This document shows positions 1 to 44,798 of a DNA stretch of 44,798 nucleotides, in pieces. A program made the translations under genes and the position numbers. Location of the stretch: the sequence record LT960609; one strand, given 5' to 3'. Within the stretch, counting starts at the first letter, position 1. Each line of letters begins with the position of its first letter. Under the pieces are notes generated by a model, which was not told where the DNA came from, did no database searches, and saw only the letters and a list, made by a program, of their open reading frames with translations. The DNA comes from Escherichia phage SECphi18.

Positions 1-55
1 GGTGAATAATAGATTGGTTGCAGGATGGGTGTCAACAACTAATTTAAAAAAAAAA
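1..55. repeat. Terminal duplication, copy 1 (identical to 44744-44798)
   Basis: First 55 nt (ggtgaataatagattggttgcagg...aaaaaaaaaa) recur exactly at the window end. Confidence 0.8.
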
Positions 56-80
56 GCGCCGAGGCAAAATGCGACGGCGC
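46..80 (-). terminator. Intrinsic terminator on minus strand
   Basis: Minus strand reads gcgccg-13 nt loop-cggcgc followed by T10 (plus-strand A10 at 46-55). Confidence 0.55.
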
Positions 81-110
81 TAACCAATAAGAGACAATGA
101 GACGGGAATT

Positions 111-139
111 ATTATTACACGCGTGCGCGCCCGTTTCAA
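111..139 (-). promoter_or_regulatory. Sigma70-like promoter, leftward
   Basis: Minus strand: -35 TTGAAA, 17-nt spacer, extended -10 TGtAATAAT; transcript would run into the 46-80 terminator. Confidence 0.4.
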
Positions 140-151
140 TATCCAAAGGAT

Positions 152-180
152 TTGACACCGTGCAGTTTTGGGTGTAGTTT
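152..180 (+). promoter_or_regulatory. Sigma70-like early promoter, rightward
   Basis: -35 TTGACA, 17-nt spacer, -10 TAGTTT, about 30 nt upstream of the first gene. Confidence 0.5.
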
Positions 181-211: not shown

Positions 212-541
212 ATGAATGTAAACGACGCAATCGAAATGTTAACGAAGACTGTTAGCAGTGAGACAAGCCGGTCATGGTCTTATACCGATGCCGTTGGGGC
301 GGTGCTATTTGAGGTCGAGCGCCTGCGCAGTGTAGAAAAAGAATTACGCGCCAGGCTGGAATTGCTCAACGGTACGGCAGCCAGCAAGCTGCAAAAGCAC
401 AATGAAGAAATGGAAGAATACAAAAAGCAGGTTATCCGTTTGCGCGCCGAGGGCAAATCCTGGGCGATGATTGCCGAGTTGACCGGAATTAATCAGAGCA
501 CAGTGCGCTCCTGGGTACGCAATAATAAAACTTCTAAGTAA
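212..541 (+). CDS. Small helix-turn-helix DNA-binding protein (early regulator candidate)
   Basis: 109 aa; RBS gagggaagag before ATG; C-terminal HTH-like segment GKSWAMIAELTGINQSTVRSW. Confidence 0.55.
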   Translation: MNVNDAIEMLTKTVSSETSRSWSYTDAVGAVLFEVERLRSVEKELRARLELLNGTAASKLQKHNEEMEEYKKQVIRLRAEGKSWAMIAELTGINQSTVRSWVRNNKTSK

Positions 542-2891: not shown

Positions 2892-2976
2892 ATTTTGGGT
2901 GTTTTTATCCGGTCGTATTGGTTGCCGTGTCGTGTAAATATAGTGAATAGTTATGCAATAAAACTGCATAAACTAA

Positions 2977-3078
2977 GCGGGACAAAAAGCGGGACAAACA
3001 TGAGGCGGGACAAAGCGGGACAGCACCCCTGTCCCGCCCCGGATGACGCGGCCTGGCGAGGAGCGGGACAGCGGGACA
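2977..3078. repeat. Iteron cluster A: six direct GCGGGACA copies plus one inverted copy
   Basis: GCGGGACA at about 2977, 2989, 3005, 3015, 3063, 3071; inverted TGTCCCGC at about 3030; non-coding. Confidence 0.7.
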
Positions 3079-3138
3079 GCACCCCAGTCTTTCAGACTAG
3101 ACGGGGTCAGTGGCCCCCCCCCGTCTGAGACTGAATAA
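3064..3138 (+). other. Conserved ~75-nt structured element, copy A (paralog at 19504-19578)
   Basis: cgggacagcgggacagcaccccagtctttcagactagacgggg...ccccgtctgagactgaataa; hairpins agtct/agact and agacgggg/ccccgtct. Confidence 0.55.
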
Positions 3139-7763: not shown

Positions 7764-7789
7764 AGCCCGCCGATTTGGTGGGCTTTTTT
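7764..7789 (+). terminator. Intrinsic terminator
   Basis: agcccgcc-gattt-ggtgggct (one G-U pair) followed by T6. Confidence 0.5.
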
Positions 7790-7803
7790 GTGCCTGTTAT
7801 AAT
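7775..7803 (+). promoter_or_regulatory. Sigma70-like promoter with extended -10, upstream of terminase genes
   Basis: -35 TTGGTG, 17-nt spacer, TGtTATAAT. Confidence 0.45.
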
Positions 7804-7873
7804 CCACCTTAGATGGCAGGGCCGTCTCCTATGTTGCCGATGGTCGGCGCATATGAACAAAAGGGCATATATC

Positions 7874-8425
7874 ATGGCAGAAATCAAAGTTAAGGGCCGA
7901 CGCGCCAAACTGGACGGACGAGTAGCAGTAACCCCGCGCCGTAAACCAGGCGAGCAAACTGAGCATACCAATCTCGGACCTGAAATCGAGTACGGAAAGC
8001 GCCGTAAAGGCGGCAAATGTGGACGCCCTACTGACTACCGATCCGTTTACTGCGACCAGCTTCGCCGCTATTTTGCCGACGCCGACGCCTGGCAGGTCAA
8101 CTACTCCGATAAAGGCGCTGCGCAAGTAATCCCCCGCAACAAAATGCCAACCTTCGGTCGATTTGCCGCGGAAATCGGTGTGGGCGTAGCTTGCCTGTAT
8201 CGCTGGGCGCGCGCACATGAGGAGTTCGCCGAGGCAATGGCTGACGCTATGGAATTGCAGAAAACCTTCCTGATGGAAGCTGGCGGCGTGACCATCGCGG
8301 CGGGCTTCGCCACGTTCCTGCTTAAAGCCAACCACGGCGTCCGCGACGATACCCCACTGGATGACGACGAAGATGATAACGGCGACGTCGTTGTCGAACC
8401 TACCGGCAAAGGCCAGGGTGAGTAA
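7874..8425 (+). CDS. Terminase small subunit
   Basis: 183 aa from internal ATG with RBS aaaggg; HTH-like FAAEIGVGVACLYRWARAHEEF; directly upstream of and overlapping the large subunit. Confidence 0.55.
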   Translation: MAEIKVKGRRAKLDGRVAVTPRRKPGEQTEHTNLGPEIEYGKRRKGGKCGRPTDYRSVYCDQLRRYFADADAWQVNYSDKGAAQVIPRNKMPTFGRFAAEIGVGVACLYRWARAHEEFAEAMADAMELQKTFLMEAGGVTIAAGFATFLLKANHGVRDDTPLDDDEDDNGDVVVEPTGKGQGE

Positions 8426-9810
8426 TGCGTAACTATGCGGCAGAACACCGCGCACTGGAACGCGCGATCGCAAAGCGCAACCTACCGCCACGCCCGACAC
8501 GCGTTGCGCAGGCGGTGCGTCTTTACCAGCCTGATTGCCTACCGCACCAGGTCGAACTACTGCGCGACACAAAGACTAAAATACTCGGCCTGTGTTCCGG
8601 CTTCGGTGGTGGAAAGTCGTGGGTCGCTGCGCGTAAGGTAATCCAGCTTCTCACCCTGAACCCTGGTCATGATGGAATTGTGACGGAACCGACTATTCCG
8701 CTCCTGGTTAAAATTATGTATCCGGAATTGGAAAAGGCGTTTGACGAGGCTGGCTTCCGGTGGAAGTTCAATAAGCAGGACAAGATCTATAATGTGCTGG
8801 TGAAAGGAAAATGGACTCGCGTTATCTGTGAATCAATGGAGAACTATACCCGCCTGATTGGGGTTAACGCCGCGTGGATTGTTGCCGACGAGTTCGATAC
8901 CACGAAGCAAGACGTTGCGCTGGCGGCGTATCACAAATTGCTCGGTCGTCTGCGTGCAGGCTTTGTGCGCCAGTTCGTCATCGTGTCCACCCCGGAAGGC
9001 TACCGGGCGATGTACCAGATTTTCGAAGTGGAGAAGGATAGCCAGAAGCGTTTGATCCGGGCGAAGACCACCGACAACCACCATTTACCGGCAGACTTTA
9101 TCGACACGCTGCGCAGTCAGTACCCGGCTAACCTGATCGACGCGTACCTGAACGGCCTATTTGTTAACCTTACGTCGGGCGCGGTGTACAAGATGTTCAA
9201 CCGTGAGGAGAACGCCAGCACTGAAGAAGTGCAACCCGACGACACGCTGATTATCGGTATGGACTTTAACGTCACGAAGATGGCGGCGGTCGTGTACGTC
9301 AGACGGCAGCGCATCACCGAAAACAAGGAGTTCCGCGACGAGATCCACGCAGTGGATGAATTCGTGGACCTGTTTGACACCCCGGCTATGATTGAGGCGA
9401 TCGAGGAGCGCTACCCCGATCATTGTGCTGCCGGTCGGGTCGTCGTTTACCCGGATAGCAGCGGCAAGTCCCGCAAGACTGTCAACGCATCGTCGTCAGA
9501 TATCGCACAACTGGAAGACGCGGGCTTCGAGGTGGAGTACGACAGCGTTAACCCACCTGTGAAAGACCGATTGATCGCGATGAATACGATGATGTGCAAC
9601 TCGAAGGGCGTGCGCCAGTATTTTGTCAACCTGGATAAATGCCCTACACTAGCGAAATGTCTGGAACAGCAGGTTTACGACCTGAAGAAAGGCGAGCCGG
9701 ATAAAACCGCCGGGGTGGACCACATGAACGATGCCGCGGGCTATCCAATTGCGCACCTGTTCCCAGTGATTCGCCCAATCGCCGTTGTTCCAACTGTAGA
9801 CTTCTACTAA
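8425..9810 (+). CDS. Terminase large subunit
   Basis: 461 aa; Walker A GFGGGKS and Walker B-like WIVADE; ATG overlaps upstream stop. Confidence 0.85.
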   Translation: MRNYAAEHRALERAIAKRNLPPRPTRVAQAVRLYQPDCLPHQVELLRDTKTKILGLCSGFGGGKSWVAARKVIQLLTLNPGHDGIVTEPTIPLLVKIMYPELEKAFDEAGFRWKFNKQDKIYNVLVKGKWTRVICESMENYTRLIGVNAAWIVADEFDTTKQDVALAAYHKLLGRLRAGFVRQFVIVSTPEGYRAMYQIFEVEKDSQKRLIRAKTTDNHHLPADFIDTLRSQYPANLIDAYLNGLFVNLTSGAVYKMFNREENASTEEVQPDDTLIIGMDFNVTKMAAVVYVRRQRITENKEFRDEIHAVDEFVDLFDTPAMIEAIEERYPDHCAAGRVVVYPDSSGKSRKTVNASSSDIAQLEDAGFEVEYDSVNPPVKDRLIAMNTMMCNSKGVRQYFVNLDKCPTLAKCLEQQVYDLKKGEPDKTAGVDHMNDAAGYPIAHLFPVIRPIAVVPTVDFY

Positions 9811-11341: not shown

Positions 11342-12428
11342 TCAACATTTGGCGGATCGAATGATTCGCCGTCACATCTTCACCCAGCGCCTGAGCAATG
11401 ATCAGGCGCGGAGGGTGCTGGCTATGTGGGAGAAGTTCCGGCCCGCTTTGCTAGGCAAGTTGACCGAGTTACTTGATGGCAAAAAGTCCATGAACAACAA
11501 GGCACTTACCACTCTATTAACGCAACTAGACAAGACCGTCAAAACGGAACTGCGCGCCGAGTTTAAGGCGCTGGCTGAAAGCCTTCAGGAGTTCGCCGAC
11601 ACCGAGGCTGATTATCTCACCGACACATTAACGGCAGCGATCCAGCCCGCTGTCGCCGTACCCGCTGTTGAAGTAGTTGGCGTTGTTACCGGCGCGCAGA
11701 TTGCCGCGACGGCAATGAAAAACCCGTTCCAGGGTAATACTATGATGCAATGGCCTGATTCCCTTTCCGAGTGGACCAGGACGCAGATCGGGAATCAGGT
11801 ACGCGCTGGATTCATCCAGGGCAAGCCGACGATGGAAATTATTGCGGACGTGAGGCGCGCGCTAGGCGGTCGTAGTGCGCAAGCAATCTCAAGCGTTGTT
11901 AAGTCCGCGGTCAACCACTATGCGGCGACCGCCCGCGAATTAATGGTAAAAGCTAATGACGATATTCTCGAAGGTCGCCAATGGTTGGCTACATTGGACA
12001 CTCATACTTCCCCTATGTGCCAGCTACGCGATCGCCTGTTTTATCCTGTCGACGTCACTCCCGACACCAAAGGAAAACGCGGCGGGAAAGTGGTGGCGGG
12101 ATCACAATATGGCGCTGGTCCGGGCAAGCTGCATTATTGCTGCCGTTCGACGGAGACGTGGAAAGTTAAGGGCATGGAAGATTGGCCCAGTGGTAAGCGT
12201 CCGGCACTGAAGGCTGAAGCGGGCAGATTGCTGAGTGAGCAGGTCGACGCGCAGACTGATTTCTTCTCATGGGTGCAGCGCCAGCCGCGCCATATTCTGG
12301 AGGAATTATATGGAGTGCAGCGCGCCGACCAGATTATGCGCGGCGTGAAAGTGCCGAAGATGTTCACCGATTCTGGCGAACTGATGACTATCGCACAGCT
12401 TAAAAACCGGGGGTTATGGCGTGATTAA
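11325..12428 (+). CDS. Head morphogenesis protein (Mu F / SPP1 gp7-like)
   Basis: 367 aa; overlaps portal 3' end; typical position. Confidence 0.65.
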   Translation: MAKTINQHLADRMIRRHIFTQRLSNDQARRVLAMWEKFRPALLGKLTELLDGKKSMNNKALTTLLTQLDKTVKTELRAEFKALAESLQEFADTEADYLTDTLTAAIQPAVAVPAVEVVGVVTGAQIAATAMKNPFQGNTMMQWPDSLSEWTRTQIGNQVRAGFIQGKPTMEIIADVRRALGGRSAQAISSVVKSAVNHYAATARELMVKANDDILEGRQWLATLDTHTSPMCQLRDRLFYPVDVTPDTKGKRGGKVVAGSQYGAGPGKLHYCCRSTETWKVKGMEDWPSGKRPALKAEAGRLLSEQVDAQTDFFSWVQRQPRHILEELYGVQRADQIMRGVKVPKMFTDSGELMTIAQLKNRGLWRD

Positions 12429-12729
12429 ATATGCAGCGATTGGACTGGTTATCGGTCTGGCGGTTGGATTCTGGCAGGGTGATTCCTACCGCACTGGCGT
12501 TGAGGCGAGAGCGGCGCAAGAAGCGCAAGCGAAAGCCCAACGGCAGCAAACTAAGGTTGTCGAGGGGGCCGTGCAGGCAGAACAGGCCCGCGACGTGGAA
12601 TACCGGACTATCACGAAAGAGGTTGTAAAATATGTTACGCGTCCTAACCGTCCTGATTGCCGTTTTGATGATGAGCGCGTGCGGATCAAGCAACGTGCCA
12701 TCGACGCCGCTAACCGAGTCGGTCTATAG
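12421..12729 (+). CDS. i-spanin (Rz-like)
   Basis: 102 aa; GTG start; N-terminal TM AAIGLVIGLAVGFW then charged helical region; overlaps the o-spanin in another frame. Confidence 0.5.
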   Translation: MIKYAAIGLVIGLAVGFWQGDSYRTGVEARAAQEAQAKAQRQQTKVVEGAVQAEQARDVEYRTITKEVVKYVTRPNRPDCRFDDERVRIKQRAIDAANRVGL

Positions 12730-12862
12730 ACCACCTTGCACCTTTGAGAATGCCTCGGCAGATCCAGACGAAGACTTGCTGGTTGATGTTAAAAATATGG
12801 AATGCGGGGCTAAGCTAAGGGCGCAAGTGCTGGAGTTGCAGAAAATAATTCGGGGGCCGTGA
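12632..12862 (+). CDS. o-spanin (Rz1-like outer-membrane lipoprotein)
   Basis: 76 aa; signal peptide with lipobox LMMSAC; starts inside the i-spanin gene in a different frame. Confidence 0.55.
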   Translation: MLRVLTVLIAVLMMSACGSSNVPSTPLTESVYRPPCTFENASADPDEDLLVDVKNMECGAKLRAQVLELQKIIRGP

Positions 12863-12876
12863 TGGCCCCCTTTTGT
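12852..12876. terminator. Bidirectional intrinsic terminator
   Basis: gggggcc-gtga-ggccccc followed by TTTT; lies between convergent genes. Confidence 0.6.
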
Positions 12877-13640
12877 TAGCGCGGAATACCGCAAATCTCG
12901 TTTAGTGTTTTCACGTCCAGCGCCACCGCCGTGGACTTAGGCTTGTCCGGGTAAGGAATGAACTGTTCCACTTCAGGCCACGCCTTGATCAGCTTCTTAT
13001 CGGTATTGTGCATATCCAGAACGCCGGTAACGGTTAGTTTGAACGCATCATACTTCGCACGCAACTCGCGGCGGGCCTGGTCGTTACGGTCAAGGCGCTT
13101 GCAGAAGTCGTGGTCTGACGGGTAGTCCGCGCGATCGCGAGGAAGATATATCGGCAACGCTTTCCCGTCCTCGTCCACTTCGCACACTGACGCGAGCATA
13201 ACTGTCTCGAACCCCGGAACGATATCGCCGAGATCAGGCGCGAGCTTATTCATATATTTCTCTTCCCAGTATCCGCGATGTATGCGATGTTGGCGACCGT
13301 CGCCGCTCAATGACAAGGTGCGAACATTGCCGCCTGCGTTGATTTCAAAGGTGGCGTTGTAAACGCTGCCGATACCTTTCGGGCGGTCGGTGTTGTAGCT
13401 ATACGTCGCCTTGTTGGAGTAGACGCTGACGCCGTACATCTGCGACTGGGCATCGCGGATTGCCTTGATATGCTCGCGGAGCGCTGCAAACGTGCGAATG
13501 CCTTCCGGCATACAGTCCAGCGTAATGGCGTACGCAAGGTCGCGAGAGTCCATCATGATGGATTTGGCTTCGGTCGCGATTTCGTGGCCGCGCAGGATGT
13601 TAGCCAGAATCTGGTTTTTAATGTCTTTCGTCAGTCTCAT
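12876..13640 (-). CDS. Reverse-strand moron, hypothetical protein (254 aa)
   Basis: Internal ATG (MRLTKDIK...) with RBS gagga; own promoter; no family recognised by eye; the longer ORF-track N-terminus overlaps the scaffold gene. Confidence 0.6.
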   Translation of the reverse strand: MRLTKDIKNQILANILRGHEIATEAKSIMMDSRDLAYAITLDCMPEGIRTFAALREHIKAIRDAQSQMYGVSVYSNKATYSYNTDRPKGIGSVYNATFEINAGGNVRTLSLSGDGRQHRIHRGYWEEKYMNKLAPDLGDIVPGFETVMLASVCEVDEDGKALPIYLPRDRADYPSDHDFCKRLDRNDQARRELRAKYDAFKLTVTGVLDMHNTDKKLIKAWPEVEQFIPYPDKPKSTAVALDVKTLNEICGIPR

Positions 13641-14590: not shown

Positions 14591-15691
14591 ATGTCTTTAA
14601 CAGTGTTCCAGCGTAAACTCGTTACCGCGGTTACGCAAATGATCCCCGACAACCTGAACGTTTTCAACGCCGCCGCCAATGGTGCTGTTGTTCTCGGTAC
14701 TGGTGAAGTGCTGAAGGATGTTGTAGAAAAAATGTCCGTAGGCTTGATCGCCAACCTTGTTACCGACCGTAACGCCTACGCCCCTGTCGGTACTCCGGCA
14801 ACCGCTAAAGTGCTGGCGCGTATGCTGACCAACTCCGTTAACCTATCCGCGAAAGTGGGTCCGGTAGCGATCACTAAGGCTATGATGGCTAAAATCGAAA
14901 CCAACGTTAACAGCGTTGCGGCTGAGATTGCGGCACAGGCTACTCAAGCGATTATGCTGCATTACCTGAAAGCGGGTATCGGTGCGGGTAAAGCGGCGAT
15001 CGAGAGCAACAACAACGCGGTATACACCCAACCGGCGCGCGTTGACGGCGTTGGCGGTCGTACCTTCCCGACCCTGGCAGACTTCCCGCTGGCGGCTTCT
15101 AAGTTCGGCGATCAGGCGTCTTTAATTAAGTCCTGGTTTATGGACGGCGTTACCTGGGCAAACTTCATTGCGTACCAGGCACTCCCGTCCGCTGAACAGG
15201 TATTTGCAATTGGCGATCTCCAGGTAATGGGTGATGGCCTAGGCCGTCGTTTCATTATCTCCGACGCCGCTGCGGATGCTATGGGTGCTGGTAAAATGCT
15301 GGGTCTGGTTCCTGGCGCGGTTGCAGTTACCACCAACGGCCTCGATATGCTGGCGCAGGAGAAAGGCGGTAACGAGAACATCGAACGCTGGTGGCAGGGC
15401 GAGTTCGACTTCAACGTGGCCGTTAAAGGCTACCGTCTGAAGGCGTCCGCTCGTACCCCGATCGAAGGTGTGCGCTCGTTCAAACTGGACGATATTACCA
15501 CTTCCGCTAACTGGGAACTGGACCAGGGCCAGGTAGACAACGCACCGGCAACCGTGCAGGATGTTGGCGCTGTGGGTGATGGCGATACTAAAGGCCGTCG
15601 TAAGACCCAGGCCGCACAGGCAGTGCCTACCCGTCACATCAAGGAAACCGCTGGCGTACTGGTTACGCTGACGGCGACTACCGCGTCTTAA
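14591..15691 (+). CDS. Major capsid protein
   Basis: 366 aa; RBS aaagga; position after scaffold; followed by a strong terminator. Confidence 0.7.
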   Translation: MSLTVFQRKLVTAVTQMIPDNLNVFNAAANGAVVLGTGEVLKDVVEKMSVGLIANLVTDRNAYAPVGTPATAKVLARMLTNSVNLSAKVGPVAITKAMMAKIETNVNSVAAEIAAQATQAIMLHYLKAGIGAGKAAIESNNNAVYTQPARVDGVGGRTFPTLADFPLAASKFGDQASLIKSWFMDGVTWANFIAYQALPSAEQVFAIGDLQVMGDGLGRRFIISDAAADAMGAGKMLGLVPGAVAVTTNGLDMLAQEKGGNENIERWWQGEFDFNVAVKGYRLKASARTPIEGVRSFKLDDITTSANWELDQGQVDNAPATVQDVGAVGDGDTKGRRKTQAAQAVPTRHIKETAGVLVTLTATTAS

Positions 15692-15709
15692 CGGGCGCAC
15701 ATCCCAAAT

Positions 15710-15735
15710 GGGCGGGCTTATGCCCGCCTTTTTTA
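15710..15735 (+). terminator. Intrinsic terminator after the capsid gene
   Basis: gggcgggc-ttat-gcccgcc followed by T6. Confidence 0.6.
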
Positions 15736-15749
15736 TAGGAGTGAATCTA

Positions 15750-16250
15750 ATGTATGGCGACCCGCAAACCTTTGTCGATTATGCCGCTGCGCGAGGCGTT
15801 GAAGTCACGTTGGGCGATGCAACGCGACACCTTACCATCGTTAATGACTTCCTTAACGGCATCAACTGGATCGGCGAACAGGCGGACCAGACAGGAATAG
15901 ACGCATGGCCCCGCATCAATTACCCATCGGACGGGAAGCCGGTGCGCGACACGCTAACCGAAGTCGTGGCGGTAGTGCCTGCTGGGCAAATCGTAGACTT
16001 TGCATCAATCCCCGTTGCCGTTGAGCAAGCTGTTTACCGGCTGGCGCTGTTGGTGGCAGACGAGATCGATATTTCTCCTGTCGGCGATGGTAAAGAGACT
16101 ATTCGCGAAACGGTCGGCCCGATCACGATGGAGTATGACCCGGCGTCGATTGGTAGCGGGGTGTCGTTCCCGTGGTGGGATGGCTTGTTAGGGCACTGGG
16201 TTGATTCTGGCGGCAACGCCGCAGGCAACTTCGACGTATTCAGGGGGTAA
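15750..16250 (+). CDS. Head-tail connector/adaptor candidate
   Basis: 166 aa from internal ATG with RBS aggagtg; position between capsid and tail genes. Confidence 0.4.
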   Translation: MYGDPQTFVDYAAARGVEVTLGDATRHLTIVNDFLNGINWIGEQADQTGIDAWPRINYPSDGKPVRDTLTEVVAVVPAGQIVDFASIPVAVEQAVYRLALLVADEIDISPVGDGKETIRETVGPITMEYDPASIGSGVSFPWWDGLLGHWVDSGGNAAGNFDVFRG

Positions 16251-16251
16251 T

Positions 16252-16368
16252 ATGAGTCCTGCATTACTCGCGGCTATTATCGCCGCCAACACTAAACGGC
16301 AGCCAGAACAGCCGGATCCGGAACCCGAACCACCGGCACAGGAGAGCGAAGAAGATGGCGGGCTTTAA
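16252..16368 (+). CDS. Small hypothetical protein (38 aa)
   Basis: ATG 1 nt after upstream stop; Pro/Glu-rich; below ORF-track cutoff. Confidence 0.25.
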   Translation: MSPALLAAIIAANTKRQPEQPDPEPEPPAQESEEDGGL

Positions 16369-16708
16369 TTACGCAGGATTAAAGCGGAAAGTGAATCCGC
16401 TGATTAAAAAATTCGGCATGACCGTTACGGTGACGCGTCCTGGGTCTGTTGACCGCGTAGACGGCGACGAAGTGGTAAGACCGCCAACGTCGTTTGACGT
16501 CATCGGTCTTCGCGAGGAGTACAAGCCTAGCGAGATCGACGGAACGCGTATCGTTGCCGGTGATGTGAAGTTTTTATGTCGGGCGGTTGAGCAATTGCGG
16601 GTTGGCGACCTGGTTAACCTGAACGGTGCGGACTACCGGGTCGTCAATCCAAACCCACTGCAACCGGCAGGTACGACCATGCTGTTTCAACTACAGCTAA
16701 GGGGCTAA
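16355..16708 (+). CDS. Head-tail joining protein candidate
   Basis: 117 aa; RBS ggagag; position. Confidence 0.4.
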   Translation: MAGFNYAGLKRKVNPLIKKFGMTVTVTRPGSVDRVDGDEVVRPPTSFDVIGLREEYKPSEIDGTRIVAGDVKFLCRAVEQLRVGDLVNLNGADYRVVNPNPLQPAGTTMLFQLQLRG

Positions 16709-19261: not shown

Positions 19262-19518
19262 GCGGGACAAAAGCGGGACGTCCCGTTTTGTCCCGCCCTG
19301 TAAAACCGCATATCTAATCTCTTTCATTGCATAAACTCAAAGCGGGACAGGCGGGACGTCCCGTTTTGTCCCACCCCGAAATGTGCATACCTATTCGAAT
19401 TTCGTGCATAAAACAAACGGGACAAAAAGCGGGACAGCATAGGGGCGGGACAAAGCGGGACAGCACCCCGTCCCCACCAGTGCTGCCGCGGGTTTTAGCC
19501 GATCGGGACAGCGGGACA
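19262..19518. repeat. Iteron cluster B: about nine GCGGGACA-type copies with GGGACGTCCC palindromes
   Basis: Units of about 80 nt: tgcataaa, then GCGGGACA, then GCGGGACgtcccg; non-coding block inside the tail module. Confidence 0.7.
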
Positions 19519-19578
19519 GCACCCCAGTCTTTCAGACTAGACGGGGGTCAACGGCCCCCCTCGTCTGAGACTGAATAA
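19504..19578 (+). other. Conserved ~75-nt structured element, copy B (paralog at 3064-3138)
   Basis: Matches copy A except for a few changes in the second hairpin that keep pairing through a G-U wobble. Confidence 0.55.
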
Positions 19579-25053: not shown

Positions 25054-28000
25054 CGATTATCTACGACGTCACGGGCCATAAAGGCGGCGGCGGAAAACAG
25101 CACACCCCACAGGAGACGCCCGATAGCCTGCATTCGCTGGCTAAAATCCGCATCTTGCTCGCGTTGGGTGAAGGGGAATTCGAAGGCATTACGAGCGCCA
25201 GCGAATTGCGGCAGCGTGTATACCTGGACGGAACACCGATCCAGAACGCAGACCTGTCAGAAAACTTCCCTGGAGCGCGTGTGGAGTTCCGCCCCGGAAC
25301 ACAACACCAGGATGTGATCCACGGATTTTCAGCGGTGGAAAGTGAGCAATCCGTTGGGGTAAAACTGGAGAACGGCACGCCGTGGGTGCGCCAGATTAAC
25401 GACACCAGTTTGGACGCCGTGCGCATTCGCATCGGCATTCCGGCCTTGTACACAAACGAAGATAATGGCGACCTGGTGGGTGGGCGCATCGACTATAAGA
25501 TCGTTGTGTATACGGATAACGCCGACCCGCGTGAGTTTACCTTCGCCGCCGTTGGTAAAACAATGTCGCTATACGAGCGCGATCACCGCATCGAGCTACC
25601 GCCGAACGTTAACACCGGCTGGCGCGTGGAGGTGCACCGCATAACGGCAGACTCCACATCGGCGAAAGTGGTTAATGATATCCGGGTGCAGTCCATCACT
25701 GAGATTATCGACGCCCGCCTGCGTTACCCGCTAACCGCGCTGTTGTTTGTGGAGTTCGACGCCAAAGCGTTCCAGAACATCCCGCGCGTGTCCATCAAGT
25801 GCAAAGGCCGCAAAGTTCTAATACCGAACAACTACGACCCGATTAATCATACTTATTCGGGGGACTGGGACGGCACGTTCAAACGCGCATGGACGGATAA
25901 CCCTGCGTGGCACTGGTACGATATTTGTATTACTGAGCGCTTCGGCCTCGGTCGCCGGATCAAACCGCAAATGCTGAACCGGTACGCGCTCTACCAGATC
26001 GCGCAGCGCTGCGATCAGTTGGTAAGTGACGGCAACGGCGGACGGGAAATCAGATTTAAGAATGATATGTACATCCAGTCGCAGACAGACGCCTGGACCG
26101 TGCTTAAGGATTTAGCTGCCATCTTCGCCGGGATGACCTGGTGGGGAAACCAAATGTTGAATATCGTCAGTGACCAACCGGTCGCAGCAGTGTCGCACAC
26201 TATCACCAACGCCTCGGTTATTGATGGTCGATTCGACTACGCATCTGGCAGCCAGAAAACGCGGTACTCCACTTTCGCGGTAGCATACGGCAACCCGAAA
26301 AACCACTATGATGACGCTATCGCAACGGGCCAGCGCGTCGAACTGGTGCGCCGCCATAAGATTAACCGTCTTGATATAACGGCGATCGGCTGTACGCGCG
26401 AATCTGAAGCGCAACGCCGCGGACACTGGGCGCTAATCTCCAACCAGTTGGACCAGCAGGTCAGCTTTAAGGTTGGCATGGAGGGGCTATTCTTTATTCC
26501 TGGTAGCGTAGTAGCGATCGCGGATACTAATATTTCTGGCGGATTTGAGACTCGCGGCGGTCGCCTGTTGTCAGACCCTGGCACGCGTACCGTGCTTAAC
26601 ACAGACAGCGAAATCACATTCCGCCCCGGCGATAAGTTCCTGGTGCGCACCGATAGCGGAAATGTGGAGACTCGCGAGATCGCCAGCGTCAACGGCAACA
26701 AGGTCACGCTAAAAACCGCACTGGATGCCGACCCGATTCCAGACCAACCGTTTTGCGTTGATGGCGATGATATCCAGTTGCAAAAATTCCGCATCACCGA
26801 TCTGGAGTATGACGACTCTACGAGCACTTTCTCGGTGCGCGGGATTGAATACAACGATAGCAAGTATGATGCCGTTGATAATGGCGCTCGCCTTGATCCT
26901 GGTATCTTCACGCAAGTGCCAGACGGTGTAATGAAGGGGCCGGAATCCGTTACCATCACCCCGTCGCAGATCTCATCGCAAGGCCAGCTAATCACCAACG
27001 TGGATATTGTTTTCCCGCCGGTGAAGGATGCCGTTGTGTATGAAATCCAGTGGCGACGTACCAGCTTGCAGAATATGGCGATCCAGTGGGGTAACGACTG
27101 GGTGAACATTCCCCGCACGGCATCGAACGGTGCGCACATCCCGAACGTGTTTTCCGGCAACTATCAGGCACGCGTCCGTGCGATCGGTATGGGCGAGATT
27201 TCATCCCCGTGGGTGTCGTCCGCCATCACGCCGGTGGAAGGTCGCCTCGGTGGGCTTAACGCACCAATCATCACCAACGCGATTTCGGGTCTGCATCAAA
27301 TTCTATGGAAGTGGAACCACAACAACGCCGCGACTGATATTTCGTACACCGAGCTTGAAGTGCGCAAGACTGGCGAAACGGAATGGAAGTTCCTAACCAA
27401 CGTCCCATATCCGGGGTCGGAGTATGCGCAAACGTCGCTGGAGTTCGGAATTTACCAGCAGTTGCGCGCCCGTGTAGCTGATAAAATCGGCAACCTGTCG
27501 GACTGGTCCGCCCCGTTTGAAGGCCAGGTGAGTGACAAAGTTGACGAGTACATGAAGGGGCTTGATGACGAGTTCTTGACTTCCGAGGATGGTAAACGCT
27601 TCCAGGAAGCAATCGACACAATCCCGCAGGGTATTTACGAGGCGATGCTCACCGACGCGCAGCAATTGTTCAACGCCCGCGCCGAGTACAAGGGTATTTA
27701 TGCGGAAATCTCGGTCGCGTATAACGTGGCGGCGGACGCCCACAAGGCGGTCGCTCAACTGGAGACGTTGATCGGCACGCGACTTGACGATGCTGAAGCG
27801 GCGATCCACACGTTGCAGACAGCGCAAAGCACGCACGAGCAAGCCTTCGCCCAGTACCAGCAAACTGTTGCCGCTAAGTTCGGGGACCAGGAAGCCGCCA
27901 TCCAGCAGGTACAAACGGCAACGAGCACCAATGCTCAGGCGCTGGCGGATTATAAAGTCCACGTAGCGGCGCAGTTTGACCAACAGTCCGCAGCTATCGA

Positions 28001-34433: not shown

Positions 34434-34460
34434 AAAAAGGCGTCCAAACCGGACACCCTT
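34434..34460 (-). terminator. Terminator-like hairpin on minus strand
   Basis: Minus strand: ggtgtcc-ggttt-ggacgcc followed by T6. Confidence 0.4.
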
Positions 34461-34467
34461 AAGATAA

Positions 34468-34818: not shown

Positions 34819-35510
34819 TTTAAATTTTCCTCATTGACCGCTATCGCGAAGCCGCGCGGGGTGAGCGACCTGATTAATTTGGTGCGGGCAGATTTGCCTC
34901 CGAGGCGACTATACTGCTTCGAGTACCCTTTTTCAACGAAAACAGGTTTCTTCTCTGGCATACGGAAGCCGTTGCCGGTCCATAAGCAGGTCAGCTTCGG
35001 ATATGAATCGCGGGCGTTGATGTACTCTGGGAAGAGCGGGTGTACGTCATCCACCGGTAGATAGCCGCCATACTCCCACGGGTCGAACGAGTGGTCCGGC
35101 TTGCGCCATTGGGTCGATAGCACGCTGCGCGGATTCTCAATCATATATGGCACTTCGAAGAAGTCCCCCAGGTAAGCGGCGATCTTCGCGGTGCGCACCG
35201 CCTTAAGCTGGAAGGCAGGGTCGCGGGCGCGTTTGCGCGGGAAAGCTGGCGCACCGCTAACCGCCAGATCCGTACACGGCGGGAATGCGTAAATGATATC
35301 CGGCGTGCCGAAATCACCATTCATCGCGCGGTCCACGAAGTCCAGATCGATAAACTCATTACGATATCGGATACCGCGCCCATAGATCCGGTAATCAAGG
35401 TAAGACCCGTGATCGGCTTCGGAGTAGTTGAAGCAATAACACTTATGCCCCATCTCGGCAGCACGCTCAATCATCAAGCCGCTGCCGTCAAACAATGACC
35501 AGATTATCAT
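34815..35510 (-). CDS. DNA C5-cytosine methyltransferase-like protein
   Basis: 231 aa; motif I-like LFDGSG, motif IV-like FPPC, motif VI-like ENP; short for a full methyltransferase. Confidence 0.45.
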   Translation of the reverse strand: MIIWSLFDGSGLMIERAAEMGHKCYCFNYSEADHGSYLDYRIYGRGIRYRNEFIDLDFVDRAMNGDFGTPDIIYAFPPCTDLAVSGAPAFPRKRARDPAFQLKAVRTAKIAAYLGDFFEVPYMIENPRSVLSTQWRKPDHSFDPWEYGGYLPVDDVHPLFPEYINARDSYPKLTCLWTGNGFRMPEKKPVFVEKGYSKQYSRLGGKSARTKLIRSLTPRGFAIAVNEENLK

Positions 35511-40873: not shown

Positions 40874-41659
40874 TTAACGGCGGCGACGTTTACGTGGTGC
40901 TTCGTCTTCGTCGTCGTCCTCATCTTCGTCATCGCGGGACTTGCGGCGCTTGCGAGGTTTTTCATCTTCCTCATCATCGTCGTCGTCATCGCGGCGCTTG
41001 GATTTCTTGGACTTGCGCGGCTTGTCATCTTCATCATCGTCATCACGACGATTTGACTTCTTAGCCTTGCGCGGTGCTTCGTCTTCGTCGTCGTTGTCCA
41101 GGTCTTCATCGGAGCAAGAAGACCCGCCACCCCCGAAGGCTTCACCGTCATCACGGAAGCGTAAACCCAGCAAGCCAGCACCGAGTCCCTTGCCGTTGGT
41201 ATTGTTCCACGCCCAGATATCAAGGGACACGTTGCAATAACAACCGGAGTAGATCTCCTGGCCTTCGATCTCGTCGCCTTCTACTGTCAGACCCTGTTCG
41301 GTCTGCTTCTCACCGAGTGACGTTTGAATGTTTGGCTGTTTGAACGATTTAGCGTTGATGTACAACATGCCTTCGAATTCTTCAGTCACTTCGTCGCGCT
41401 CGTCACCGTCGCGGACTGCGCATTCCTTCGAATCCTGGGCGTAGTGGCGGTCCATCCACTTATCGGCATTCTTCTCGGATTTCAGCTTGTCGGTGAGCAC
41501 TGCGCGCGCTGCCGCTTCCACTTTGTCCACCTGCGGATCTTCTTTATCCAGAAGAATCACGGCACGATATGCCGGTTTTTGTCCATCCTGTTTAGGGGTG
41601 TCACGTTCCCAAATTTTCAGGAAGCATACGCGCACATTTTTCAGGTTGACTTTAGCCAT
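40874..41659 (-). CDS. ssDNA-binding-like protein with repetitive acidic/basic C-terminal tail
   Basis: 261 aa from internal ATG with RBS gaggaa; C-terminal repeats of DDDDEDDKPRKSKKSKRR type. Confidence 0.4.
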   Translation of the reverse strand: MAKVNLKNVRVCFLKIWERDTPKQDGQKPAYRAVILLDKEDPQVDKVEAAARAVLTDKLKSEKNADKWMDRHYAQDSKECAVRDGDERDEVTEEFEGMLYINAKSFKQPNIQTSLGEKQTEQGLTVEGDEIEGQEIYSGCYCNVSLDIWAWNNTNGKGLGAGLLGLRFRDDGEAFGGGGSSCSDEDLDNDDEDEAPRKAKKSNRRDDDDEDDKPRKSKKSKRRDDDDDDEEDEKPRKRRKSRDDEDEDDDEDEAPRKRRRR

Positions 41660-41992: not shown

Positions 41993-43415
41993 TGCTTAAG
42001 TCCTCGTCAGTGGCTTCAGACCACGCAGGGCGCGGGTCGTCAATTGGTGCTATTACAGGTTTAGCCGGTGCGCGCGTGATTTTATCACACAACTTCGCCC
42101 ACACTTTCGGCTTCTCGTCCTTAAGTACCTTCTCGGCATCCGTAGGACTGAGCAATGTTTCTTTGTACATCACATCGCGCTTGATCCGGGCCTTCGTGAA
42201 GATCTCAATCACTTCGCTCTCGTCCGCCCACTTGCGGATCCCTTCCTTACCGGCAACCATCTTGAGGCCCAACGATTCGCCATCTCCCGCCATGACCGCC
42301 TTGAATACCGCGGACTCGATAGCCTTGATGTGCTGGCGCATTGCGTCAAGACCTTCATATGCCTTGCGCAGTTCCGCCGCGCTCATGGCGCCTGGGGCCG
42401 CTTCCTTCTTACCACGCTTCGCACGTCGTGCCGCTTTCCTGGCTTCGCGGGCCATATTGCGATCGTGATTGGCGCATTCCTCCTCTGTCGCAATACTAGC
42501 GTCGTCGCCCAGGTCTTCGTCGGTTGCCGTTGGAGGTGTCATCGTGTCGATTGCGGCCTTCGCGCGGGCACTACACTGATCCGCAAATCGGCACCACTGG
42601 CACGCATCAACGCTGGGACGGAAGTCGGCACGGGTAAGTCCCTTCTTGCCTCGGGAATACGCCTCCAGTGCGGCAATAGCGCGCTTGGATGCAAACTTCG
42701 CGAATATCTCCAGCGCTTCTACCGAAATATCCCACTCCGACGCCCCTCCGCAATACGGCTGGAAGATAACCAGGCGAACGGTCGTAATGTCGTACATAGT
42801 TTGCAGCTTGCGCAGCAGTCCGAGCGCGTACAACATAAGCTGTTTGTTTTCTTTCGCCTCGACCTTATGCCGCCCGGTCTTCAGGTCGCCAACAATCAGC
42901 ATGTACGTCCCATCGGTCTTTTTCATGACCATGACCATATCGGCAGTACCGAACGTTTTAATCCTGTTGCCGTCGATCTCGTAGCCTGAGTGAAGGACGC
43001 GGGTAAGATCGGCGCGCATCTCAAGCTGGACAAACTCCGCCACTTCGAGGAGCGGTCGCCAGTGGTCGATGTACGCGTCGCACTGTTTCACCATGTCGTC
43101 GTTGACCAGTACGCCGCCTTTCGGTGCTTTAGGGTGCGCCTTTACCGGCCCCTTTCCTTCGTTCTCGACGTAGCACCCTTTATACGTCTTCGCGGTTATC
43201 AGCTTCTCGCCGGCGATAATGCGGTTTAGCACCACCTCCGATACGGTGTGCATACTCGTACCGTTAATCGCCGCTTGCCCTGATTCGTTCGGGATATCTT
43301 TTTCCACCACCAGGGCGGCGGGGCAATCCATCCATTTTTTAGCACCGGATGGGCCGAGTAATGAGTGTTCCGTGTTGCTGCCGGATTGCGTTTTACGTTT
43401 TGGTTTAATCGCCAT
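41985..43415 (-). CDS. DUF2800-type PD-(D/E)xK nuclease (RecB/Cas4-like)
   Basis: 476 aa; N-terminal HSLLGPSGAKKWMDCPAAL signature; Cys cluster CQWCRFADQC. Confidence 0.55.
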   Translation of the reverse strand: MAIKPKRKTQSGSNTEHSLLGPSGAKKWMDCPAALVVEKDIPNESGQAAINGTSMHTVSEVVLNRIIAGEKLITAKTYKGCYVENEGKGPVKAHPKAPKGGVLVNDDMVKQCDAYIDHWRPLLEVAEFVQLEMRADLTRVLHSGYEIDGNRIKTFGTADMVMVMKKTDGTYMLIVGDLKTGRHKVEAKENKQLMLYALGLLRKLQTMYDITTVRLVIFQPYCGGASEWDISVEALEIFAKFASKRAIAALEAYSRGKKGLTRADFRPSVDACQWCRFADQCSARAKAAIDTMTPPTATDEDLGDDASIATEEECANHDRNMAREARKAARRAKRGKKEAAPGAMSAAELRKAYEGLDAMRQHIKAIESAVFKAVMAGDGESLGLKMVAGKEGIRKWADESEVIEIFTKARIKRDVMYKETLLSPTDAEKVLKDEKPKVWAKLCDKITRAPAKPVIAPIDDPRPAWSEATDEDLSNE

Positions 43416-44033: not shown

Positions 44034-44552
44034 TTAATCTTCCAATTCGAAATAAGTTTCGACGATTTCTTTTAGCTCTTTGTGGAAGTCTTCGACGTCG
44101 TCATCTTCCAGCTTGGCGATTGATTTGATCTCGAACGACTCCAGCAGGTCGTCGAATTCGTCGTTCGCATCGTCGTCATCGCCACCGGCAATAATCGCGG
44201 CATACTGTTTGATCTCGTCGCGCATCTCCGCCAGCGGATCGGCATCTTTCTTACCTTTGCCTTTCGCCGGTGCTTTTTTAGCCTTAGCCGGTTTTTCGTC
44301 TTCGGCTTCTTCATCGTCGTCATCTTCTACGACTTCTTTTTTGGCCTTACCCTTTGCCGGCGCTTTTTTAGCCTTAGCCGGTTTTTCGTCTTCGGCTTCA
44401 TCGTCGTCATCTTCGACAACTTCTTTTTTGGCCTTAGACGGCTTCTTGTCTTCCTGCTTACCAACGGCAGCGCCAACGGTTTCATAATGCTTTGCAATGG
44501 TTTCCAGTGCTACTACGCCGCGAGTGATCAGGTTTACGATTTGCTCAAACAT
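44034..44552 (-). CDS. Acidic protein with internal ~90-bp tandem duplication
   Basis: 172 aa from internal ATG with RBS ggagat; repeated KPAKAKKAPAKGK-KEVVEDDDDE blocks. Confidence 0.5.
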   Translation of the reverse strand: MFEQIVNLITRGVVALETIAKHYETVGAAVGKQEDKKPSKAKKEVVEDDDDEAEDEKPAKAKKAPAKGKAKKEVVEDDDDEEAEDEKPAKAKKAPAKGKGKKDADPLAEMRDEIKQYAAIIAGGDDDDANDEFDDLLESFEIKSIAKLEDDDVEDFHKELKEIVETYFELED

Positions 44553-44743
44553 GGTATATCTCCGATTGGTTAAGTTTAGGTGTCGGCAGTTAACTTCGTC
44601 GGTGGCCTTAACATATTGCCAGGTTACGCGTTCTCCCGTTCGGGTAGTGGACCTGGTTATATAATCACGGTTGGGAATCCTGACACTTCGATCCGGCCCC
44701 TGCGTTGCCCCTCTCCAGTTTGCGTCCTGCATCCTGTCGACGG

Positions 44744-44798
44744 GGTGAATAATAGATTGGTTGCAGGATGGGTGTCAACAACTAATTTAAAAAAAAAA
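44744..44798. repeat. Terminal duplication, copy 2 (identical to 1-55)
   Basis: Last 55 nt equal the first 55 nt. Confidence 0.8.

What the first reader, a model, noticed from the sequence alone, without database searches (positions are those of the whole stretch)
44744..44798. Exact 55-nt identity of window ends
Identity of exactly 55 nt equals a common assembler k-mer size, so this most likely marks a circularly closed contig, meaning the window is a complete genome. A true short terminal repeat cannot be excluded.
Basis: inference. Interest (0 to 1): 0.4.

Follow-up and report, generated by a model that had tools for sequence, protein, structure and literature searches.

The report
Assembler k-mer overlap on closed contig
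The identical 55 bases at the two ends of this window are a duplicate left by the assembly software when it closed a complete 44.7-kb coliphage (Dhillonvirus) genome into a circle, not a biological terminal repeat, so one copy should simply be trimmed.

Summary
In detail: window 1-55 equals 44744-44798 exactly, 55 is the only prefix=suffix length, and the 55-mer occurs nowhere else. The window is a Dhillonvirus (HK578/SO-1-like) coliphage, about 92-93% identical to many deposited genomes. With one copy of the 55-mer removed, the end-to-start junction runs uninterrupted inside 141 related records. Three sister isolates give the decisive control: ZCEC10, ZCEC11 and ZCEC12 each carry an exact 77-nt end overlap, at three different genome positions. 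ZCEC10's overlap lies at this locus, but its left edge is 22 nt further out (77-55). So the overlap length follows the assembler's k, not the biology. Both this window and ZCEC10 break in the genome's longest homopolymer (A10, 46-55). A k=55 graph simulation shows that a minority A11 variant makes window 1-55 the sole + strand fork vertex. Published read-based analyses of relatives mostly report headful packaging with circular permutation, so no fixed short repeat is expected. Biologically, the 55-mer lies in a highly conserved divergent promoter region. The unique genome is 44,743 bp. Interest is low.

The parts
1..55 (.). First copy of the exact 55-nt end overlap. This is genuine genome sequence and should be kept.
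   Evidence: Present as a single copy in relatives.
44744..44798 (.). Second, redundant copy of the 55-mer. It is the k-mer vertex that a de Bruijn assembler repeats when it prints a self-loop as a linear contig. Trim it to obtain the 44,743-nt genome.
   Evidence: The merged junction with one copy is contiguous in 141 records. Literature on the SPAdes 55-bp overlap.
46..55 (+). A10 run, the longest homopolymer in the genome. The overlap ends exactly at its last A. It is the likely cause of the break position, as a +/-1 length variant in the reads. On the minus strand it is the U10 tail of a terminator-like hairpin.
   Evidence: longest homopolymer, and an A11 variant makes window 1-55 the fork vertex at k=55; the only indel-variable site among 7 aligned sequences (A8-A11). 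ZCEC10's 77-mer ends at the 9th A of the same run.
6..35 (-). Sigma-70-type promoter-like site (TTGACA-18-TATTAT, 11 of 12) inside the 55-mer, facing the leftward early genes. The same site is seen at 44749-44778 in the duplicate copy.
   Evidence: The depositors of the genus type phage HK578 annotate a promoter at the homologous place (record 35370-35396, equivalent to window 9-35). This is a consensus match and an annotation, not an experiment.
56..80 (-). GC-rich hairpin (stem 56-61/75-80) followed on the minus strand by U10 (55..46): an intrinsic-terminator-like element immediately upstream of the leftward promoter. The contig boundary falls exactly between the stem and the U-tail.
   Evidence: -16.7 kcal/mol, z = -3.65, 0 of 200 shuffles fold as well. 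Invariant in 7 aligned sequences.
111..180 (.). Two further promoter-like sites of the divergent control region: minus strand 139..111 (TTGAAA-17-AATAAT with TG) and plus strand 152-178/180 (TTGACA...), the latter facing the HTH gene at 212.
   Evidence: minus-strand site. HK578 depositor annotation of both sites. Sequence read directly.
44034..44732 (-). First leftward gene next to the junction (PHROG 3127, function unknown). The real start is probably the ATG at 44553 behind the RBS GGAGATATACC, which leaves a ~190-nt leader that runs from the promoter in the 55-mer.
   Evidence: ORF; the PHROG match covers only aa 61-232. Relatives annotate 143-169 aa. Sequence read.
212..541 (+). First rightward gene after the junction, a small HTH protein that relatives annotate as 'transposase/resolvase'. 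It is followed by the helicase-primase gene (552-2816). Relatives have the same gene order across the junction.
7775..9810 (+). Small (7775-8425) and large (8425-9810) terminase genes. The expected packaging start (pac) region lies here, about 7.7 kb from the contig junction.
   Evidence: TerS has weak matches to P22 gp3 and Sf6 small-terminase families; TerL matches Terminase_6N/6C. PHROG terminase families. The pac location is inferred, not shown.

Best explanation
The 55-nt end identity is an assembly artefact. A de Bruijn-graph assembler running with a final k of 55 (the SPAdes/metaSPAdes series 21, 33, 55) resolved the reads of this phage into one self-looping edge. When that loop was written out as a linear contig, the k-mer of its anchoring vertex was printed at both ends. 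The contig is therefore a complete, closed Dhillonvirus genome of 44,743 unique bases, and 44744-44798 should be trimmed. The loop closes because virion DNA in this genus is most likely packaged by the headful mechanism, giving linear, terminally redundant, circularly permuted molecules, so reads span every position. The loop was opened at this particular base, not at a random one, because the overlap ends at the last A of the genome's longest homopolymer (A10). A minority of reads with one extra A, from sequencing or PCR slippage or from real heterogeneity, creates a branch in the graph whose fork vertex is exactly the 55-mer ending in A10. After the minor branch is removed, that vertex remains as the anchor of the loop. 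What is shown: the exact overlap, the single-copy junction in relatives, the k-sized overlaps at other positions in sister genomes, and the fork-vertex identity in simulation. What is inferred: the assembler used, the existence of the minority variant in the reads, and headful packaging for this particular phage.
For: Searches show an exact 55-nt overlap with only two copies. One search shows that the junction rebuilt with one copy of the 55-mer (1,255 nt) is a single contiguous internal match in 141 of 174 related records, for example PTXU06 42058-43310, bov22_1 15443-16698 and Gluttony_ev152 11772-13027. Searches show that five IMG/VR contigs and phage welsh align across the junction without gaps, except in the A-run. 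One search shows that ZCEC10 has an exact 77-nt overlap (1-77 = 44700-44776) ending in the same A-run, with its left edge 22 nt further out. Searches show that ZCEC11 and ZCEC12 have exact 77-nt overlaps at window-equivalent positions ~41016-41092 (inside an ORF) and ~25548-25624 (inside the tail-tip gene). One search shows three things: A10 is the longest homopolymer, the clean circle has no branch vertex at k=55, and adding an A11 variant gives a + strand fork vertex identical to window 1-55. [quoted passage not shown] (PMC10438801) reports ~79-bp repeats in short-read SPAdes/Shovill phage assemblies that Sanger sequencing showed to be artefacts. Read-based packaging calls in relatives: BF9 headful/pac, permuted (PMC10059673); UDS3lw headful/pac (PMC13348001); Opt-212 headful, and all five genomes in that paper circularised on assembly (PMC9022532); 4 of 5 bovine Dhillonviruses circularly permuted (PMC8407724); K19 large terminase groups with P1 and Jerseyvirus headful terminases (PMC10783031). 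Searches show collinearity with ZCEC10 from the first base to the last.
Against: There are no reads, assembly graph or contig header, so the assembler, its k and the A10/A11 minority variant cannot be verified. The SPAdes k series is from my own knowledge of the program. PhageTerm reports in the genus are not unanimous: EE09 was called 5' cos (ATCTTAAGGG; PMC10673088) and bov25_1D 'fixed'. Neither places an end at this junction; the EE09 motif is at window 34456-34465. ZCEC11 and ZCEC12 show that loop anchors are not always at homopolymers, so the A-run explanation of the break position is plausible but not proven.
Confidence: 0.95

Rival explanations
1. A true short direct terminal repeat: the virion DNA has fixed ends and carries the same 55 bp at both ends, as in T7-like or T5-like phages but much shorter.
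For: The overlap is exact and terminal. Two independent assemblies, this window and ZCEC10, end within 1 nt of each other at the A-run, which could in principle mark a physical end. One bovine Dhillonvirus was called 'fixed' termini by PhageTerm.
Against: The left boundary is not conserved: 55 nt here and 77 nt in ZCEC10, each equal to an assembler k value. Sister phages ZCEC11 and ZCEC12 have the same 77-nt feature inside coding genes elsewhere. Most read-based studies of the genus report headful packaging or circular permutation. The site is a promoter/terminator region about 7.7 kb from the terminase genes. No paper found here places a terminus at this site.
Confidence: 0.02
2. False circularisation: the 55-mer is a genuine internal repeat of a larger or different genome, and the contig is only the segment between two copies, so the window is not a complete genome.
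For: De Bruijn assemblers can close a loop on any exact repeat of length k or more (general knowledge).
Against: In 141 relatives the sequence is single-copy and flanked by exactly the window's end sequence on one side and its start sequence on the other. The window is collinear with the full length of ZCEC10. Its unique length is within the genus range of 43-46 kb. The circle has no exact repeat of 55 nt or more.
Confidence: 0.01
3. The break site marks another kind of physical discontinuity at the A-run, such as a cos-type cut, a nick or a preferred pac cut, and the 55-nt duplication was only added on top by the assembler.
For: The break position coincides in two independent assemblies. By my estimate the chance of agreement within +/-1 nt is about 3 in 44,700 if breaks were random.
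Against: A physical end does not create a branch in a de Bruijn graph of permuted or concatemer-derived reads, whereas a homopolymer length variant does, and it reproduces the exact vertex. The reported cos motif of EE09 is 10 kb away. Pac sites of headful phages are normally in or near the small terminase gene (established knowledge of P22, SPP1 and Sf6), which here is at 7775-8425.
Confidence: 0.02

Closest known systems
SPAdes/metaSPAdes circular-contig k-mer overlap (k = 55)
   Same: Exact terminal identity of exactly 55 nt on a contig that is otherwise a complete, repeat-free circle. The same feature is described in PMC12509680 and PMC8483715.
   Different: Nothing detectable. The only unknown is which assembler and settings produced this contig.
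77-nt end overlaps in deposited Dhillonvirus records ZCEC10, ZCEC11 and ZCEC12 (OK310514, OK310512, OK310513)
   Same: Same genus (~93% identity) and the same kind of exact prefix=suffix overlap. ZCEC10's overlap sits at the same locus and ends in the same A-run.
   Different: The length is 77 rather than 55, the next value in the SPAdes k series. ZCEC11 and ZCEC12 are opened at other positions, inside genes.
Terminal redundancy of headful-packaging phages (P22, P1, SPP1, T4)
   Same: This is the likely reason the assembly closes. Relatives are reported as headful/pac and circularly permuted, and TerS has weak matches to the P22 gp3 and Sf6 small-terminase families.
   Different: Real headful redundancy is typically a few percent of the genome (hundreds to thousands of bp) with variable ends (established knowledge). 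It is not represented by a fixed 55-nt repeat in a consensus sequence.
Direct terminal repeats of T7-like or T5-like phages
   Same: An identical sequence at both ends of a linear record.
   Different: True DTRs have boundaries conserved among close relatives, are usually more than 100 bp long, and show read-start peaks and double coverage. Here the boundary moves with k (55 vs 77) and the feature appears at unrelated positions in sister genomes.

Membership tests
De Bruijn assembler circular-contig overlap (artefact) | Overlap is exact and its length equals a k value used by the assembler | tested here: met
   Exactly 55 nt at 100% identity, with no other prefix=suffix length. 55 is the value named for SPAdes circles in PMC12509680 and PMC8483715. 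The k actually used for this contig is unknown.
De Bruijn assembler circular-contig overlap (artefact) | Removing one copy gives a junction that is the native, contiguous sequence | tested here: met
   The merged junction is one contiguous internal match in 141 related records and aligns without gaps in 6 independent sequences apart from the A-run.
De Bruijn assembler circular-contig overlap (artefact) | Position and length of the overlap are properties of the assembly, not conserved among closely related genomes | tested here: met
   ZCEC10, ZCEC11 and ZCEC12 have 77-nt overlaps at three different genome positions. At the shared locus the left edge differs by 22 nt.
De Bruijn assembler circular-contig overlap (artefact) | Reads span the junction with even coverage and a single copy | not testable with these tools
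   No reads or assembly graph are available.
Direct terminal repeat (fixed-end) phage genome | Repeat boundaries conserved among close relatives | tested here: not met
   55 nt here and 77 nt in ZCEC10 at the same locus. All other sampled relatives have a single internal copy.
Direct terminal repeat (fixed-end) phage genome | Read-start peaks at both boundaries and about twofold coverage of the repeat | not testable with these tools
   No reads. Published PhageTerm results for relatives are mostly headful or permuted.
Headful (pac) packaging, circularly permuted genome | Read-based terminus analysis shows no fixed ends, or a single pac peak | not testable with these tools
   Known only from the literature on relatives: BF9, UDS3lw, Opt-212 and 4 of 5 bovine isolates. 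Dissenting calls: EE09 cos and bov25_1D fixed.
Headful (pac) packaging, circularly permuted genome | Terminase related to those of known headful phages | tested here: inconclusive
   TerS has only sub-threshold Pfam matches to P22 GP3_package (22.7 bits, cut-off 29.4) and Sf6_terminase. TerL matches the broad Terminase_6N/6C families. There is no PDB sequence match. A published tree places the K19 TerL with P1 and Jerseyvirus.
Genus Dhillonvirus (HK578/SO-1-like siphoviruses) | Genome-wide nucleotide similarity and synteny with genus members | tested here: met
   92-93% identity over 91-98% of both halves to Gluttony, ZCEC10, SO-1, SSL-2009a and others. Same gene order as ZCEC10 and HK578.

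The most novel reading that the evidence does not exclude
The A-run at 46-55 may be heterogeneous in length within the phage population through replication slippage, not only through sequencing error. It is at once the U-tail of a minus-strand terminator-like hairpin and the A/T-rich stretch just upstream of the -35 of the leftward early promoter. Its length (A8 to A11 among relatives) could therefore tune early gene expression. On this reading, the assembly break would be a by-product of a real, possibly functional, hypervariable tract.
Probability: 0.08. Interest if true: 0.3.

Novelty: not a real feature. Interest (0 to 1): 0.05.

Why it matters
The value is practical. The overlap shows that the contig is a complete, closed Dhillonvirus genome of 44,743 bp, and that 55 redundant bases must be trimmed before annotation, genome-length statistics, ANI comparisons or deposition. 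It must not be reported as a direct terminal repeat or used to infer the packaging strategy. At least three deposited genomes of the same genus (ZCEC10, ZCEC11, ZCEC12) still carry such untrimmed 77-nt overlaps, and in two of them the overlap splits a gene. This illustrates how the artefact spreads into databases and into 'DTR'-based completeness calls. The homopolymer-anchored break is a small, reusable diagnostic: when a k-sized overlap ends exactly at a long homopolymer, an assembly-graph origin is likely.

Tried and rejected
- **PDB sequence searches.** Neither the large nor the small terminase gave a usable match, so the terminases could not be typed against solved headful, cos or DTR enzymes.
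- **Pfam on TerS.** It gave only sub-threshold matches to the P22 and Sf6 families. I treat this as a hint only.
- **Rfam and tRNA scans.** Rfam at gathering thresholds and the tRNA scan of the whole window found nothing.
- **Leader RNA fold.** The ~200-nt leader downstream of the promoter in the 55-mer folds no better than shuffles (z = +0.59), so I dropped the idea of a structured leader RNA.
- **'repeat_region' in phages welsh and bob.** This annotation near the junction is the tandem repeat inside the neighbouring gene, not a terminal feature.
- **EE09 cos sequence.** The reported ATCTTAAGGG exists in the window but at 34456-34465, about 10 kb from the junction, and occurs at chance frequency.
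- **IMG/VR scan.** An exact-pattern scan returned five related contigs but not the window's own contig, so no provenance or assembler metadata could be recovered.
- **Literature searches.** Two broad searches for the k-mer overlap were mostly off-target. A narrower one found the direct statements.
- **Sandbox limits.** Several fetched loci were not exported to the Python sandbox, so their ends were read with get_sequence and the repeat finder instead.

Full report
**1. The observation**

The first 55 bases of the window are identical to the last 55 (1-55 = 44744-44798). No other prefix length equals the suffix. The bases flanking the two copies differ, and the 55-mer occurs nowhere else on the + strand. 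A chance identity of this length is out of the question (about 4^-55). The unique sequence is 44,743 nt.

**2. What the window is**

Both halves of the window match more than 150 deposited phage genomes at about 90-93% identity over 91-98% of their length. Nearly all are Escherichia or Shigella phages of the genus Dhillonvirus, such as Gluttony, ZCEC10, SSL-2009a, SO-1 and HK578.

The window is collinear with ZCEC10 from its first base to its last. The BASEL paper gives 43-46 kb for this genus (PMC8594841), and 44,743 nt falls within that range.

Rightward genes run from 212 to about 31.6 kb: an HTH protein, helicase-primase, lysis genes, terminase, and head and tail genes. Leftward genes run from about 44.7 kb down to 31.6 kb: nuclease, DNA polymerase, helicase and methyltransferases. 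GC and AT skew change sign to match. The contig ends therefore lie in the divergent intergenic region between the two transcription arms, and no gene is interrupted.

**3. Is the junction native?**

I rebuilt the circular junction with a single copy of the 55-mer, flanked by 600 nt on each side.
- It is found as one contiguous, internal stretch in 141 of 174 matching records, whose own starts are scattered around the genome.
- Five metagenomic viral contigs and phage welsh align across it without gaps, in a nearly invariant ~270-nt block. The single length-variable position is the A-run at the right end of the 55-mer: A8, C+A8, C+A9, A10 or A11. HK578 has C+A9.
- In a spread sample of records, only ZCEC10 ends at this site.

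So the genome contains one copy of the 55-mer. The second copy exists only because the record was written out linearly.

**4. The decisive control**

ZCEC10 has its own exact terminal overlap, 1-77 = 44700-44776. It ends in the same A-run, at the 9th of 10 A's, but starts 22 nt further left than the window's overlap. The difference in length, 77 - 55, equals the difference between two consecutive SPAdes k values.

ZCEC11 and ZCEC12 are sister isolates with the same record length. Each also has an exact 77-nt overlap, but at quite different places:

| Isolate | Overlap | Window-equivalent position |
|---|---|---|
| ZCEC10 | 77 nt, exact | A-run in the intergenic region (this locus) |
| ZCEC11 | 77 nt, exact | ~41016-41092, inside a leftward ORF |
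| ZCEC12 | 77 nt, exact | ~25548-25624, inside the tail-tip gene, which the depositors had to annotate as a split misc_feature |

A biological terminal repeat would have conserved boundaries among near-identical phages. An overlap whose length equals k and whose position wanders is a property of the assembly.

[quoted passage not shown] A third paper documents ~79-bp repeats in short-read SPAdes/Shovill phage assemblies that Sanger sequencing showed to be artefacts (PMC10438801).

**5. Why the circle was opened here**

Two independent assemblies breaking within one base of each other is not random. By my estimate it is about 3 chances in 44,700. The following points explain it.
- The A10 run at 46-55 is the longest homopolymer in the genome.
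- The clean 44,743-nt circle has no branching vertex at k = 55, so nothing else anchors the loop.
- When a minority variant with A11 is added, the k = 55 graph acquires a fork vertex on the + strand that is exactly window 1-55.
- With an A9 variant the fork k-mer ends at the 9th A, which is the situation in ZCEC10.

I therefore infer that +/-1 length variants of this homopolymer in the reads created the vertex at which the loop remained anchored. The variants could be sequencing or PCR slippage, or real heterogeneity. This step is inference: it fits both records exactly, but it needs the reads to be confirmed. ZCEC11 and ZCEC12 show that other anchors occur.

**6. Physical ends of the virion DNA**

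Read-based analyses of relatives mostly report headful packaging or circular permutation:
- BF9: headful/pac, permuted (PMC10059673).
- UDS3lw: headful/pac (PMC13348001).
- Opt-212: headful, and all five phages in that paper circularised on assembly (PMC9022532).
- Four of five bovine isolates: circularly permuted (PMC8407724).
- The K19 large terminase clusters with P1 and Jerseyvirus headful enzymes (PMC10783031).

There are two dissenting calls. EE09 was called a 10-nt 5' cos (PMC10673088) and bov25_1D 'fixed'. Neither puts an end at this junction. The EE09 motif lies at window 34456-34465 and occurs at chance frequency.

In the window, the small terminase has only sub-threshold matches to the P22 gp3 and Sf6 families. 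The large terminase belongs to the broad Terminase_6 families and has no PDB sequence relative. So my own test of terminase type is inconclusive, and the headful assignment rests on the literature. Under either packaging mode, the 55-nt duplicate is not a terminus.

**7. What the 55-mer is biologically**

Read on the minus strand, the region runs as follows.
1. A promoter-like site at 139..111.
2. A GC-rich hairpin at 80..56 followed by U10 at 55..46, which is an intrinsic-terminator-like element (-16.7 kcal/mol, z = -3.65).
3. An 11-of-12 sigma-70 promoter match, TTGACA-18-TATTAT, at 35..6.
4. A ~190-nt leader up to the probable start (44553) of the first leftward gene.

The HK578 depositors annotated promoters at the homologous three places, including a rightward one at about 152-178. 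The contig boundary thus falls exactly between a terminator stem and its U-tail, inside a highly conserved divergent control region. This is ordinary regulatory DNA and unrelated to packaging. These are consensus matches and annotations, not experimental facts.

**8. Verdict**

The feature is an assembler k-mer overlap on a complete, circularly closed contig. It is not a biological feature, so interest is low. Trim 44744-44798. By community convention the genome could then be rotated to start at the small terminase gene (7775).

The only mildly novel reading left open is that the A-run is a genuinely slippage-prone tract with regulatory consequences. I give that a low probability.

**9. Side observations**

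- A 174-nt non-coding repeat occurs twice (2965-3138 and 19405-19578). It is built of iterated GCGGGACA motifs: 16 in the genome against 2.35 expected, with 14 of them in two clusters. Each cluster is followed by a long hairpin.
- A 52-nt piece of the leftward leader (44665-44716) is 92% identical to intergenic DNA of ~50-kb T1-like Drexlerviridae.
- The neighbouring gene contains a 90-nt tandem repeat. Phage mckay's record appears to start or end in that region.

Noticed in passing
window 2965-3138 and 19405-19578 (motif clusters 2977-3078 and 19262-19518): A 174-nt non-coding direct repeat (~80-86% identical between copies, also present twice in ZCEC10). It is made of iterated GCGGGACA motifs: 16 in the genome against 2.35 expected, 0 of 100 shuffles reach 16, and 14 of the 16 lie in these two clusters. 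Each cluster is followed by a long hairpin (CAGTCTTTCAGACTAGACGGGG...CCCCGTCTGAGACTG) and AATAAA. The arrays look like iterons or regulator-binding sites. One lies after the helicase-primase gene and the other before the tape-measure gene.
   Followed up: partly
window 44665-44716: A 52-nt stretch of the leader upstream of the first leftward gene is 92% identical to intergenic DNA of ~50-kb T1-like phages of another family (Drexlerviridae: swan01, tunus, BEBK14, MatMar). In swan01 it also lies between two minus-strand genes. The leader RNA does not fold better than shuffles, and there is no Rfam match. This is a non-coding element of unknown role conserved across genera.
   Followed up: partly
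window 46-139, minus strand: A promoter-like site (139..111, TTGAAA-17-AATAAT with TG) lies only ~20-30 nt upstream of a strong terminator-like hairpin plus U10 (80..46). Together they could specify a very short transcript of roughly 55-60 nt, or insulate the leftward early promoter. The whole block is invariant in 7 aligned sequences except for the length of the A/T run.
   Followed up: partly
window 44240-44419, inside the gene 44034..44553/44732 (minus strand): A 90-nt tandem duplication (81% identical) lies in the acidic/lysine-rich coding region of the first leftward gene. Related short repeats occur at 40890-41111. Phage welsh annotates the homologous stretch as repeat_region, and phage mckay's record appears to begin in this area, suggesting it also disturbs assemblies.
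   Followed up: partly
window 44034-44732, minus strand: The mechanical ORF of 232 aa is probably over-extended. The PHROG 3127 match covers only aa 61-232, relatives annotate 143-169 aa, and a strong RBS (GGAGATATACC) precedes the ATG at 44553.
   Followed up: partly
GenBank records OK310514, OK310512, OK310513 (ZCEC10/11/12; loci L002, L008-L011): Three deposited 'complete genomes' still carry untrimmed exact 77-nt end overlaps. In ZCEC11 and ZCEC12 the record start splits a gene, which is annotated as misc_feature 'similar to ...'. Their true length is 44,699 nt rather than 44,776.
   Followed up: yes
window 34456-34465, minus strand: An exact copy of ATCTTAAGGG, the 10-nt sequence reported as a 5' cohesive end for the Dhillonvirus EE09 (PMC10673088). 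That report conflicts with the headful/permuted calls for other genus members. Occurrence of the motif is at chance level (2 hits with up to 1 mismatch against 1.47 expected). Whether EE09 really differs in packaging or the call is a library artefact is unresolved.
   Followed up: partly
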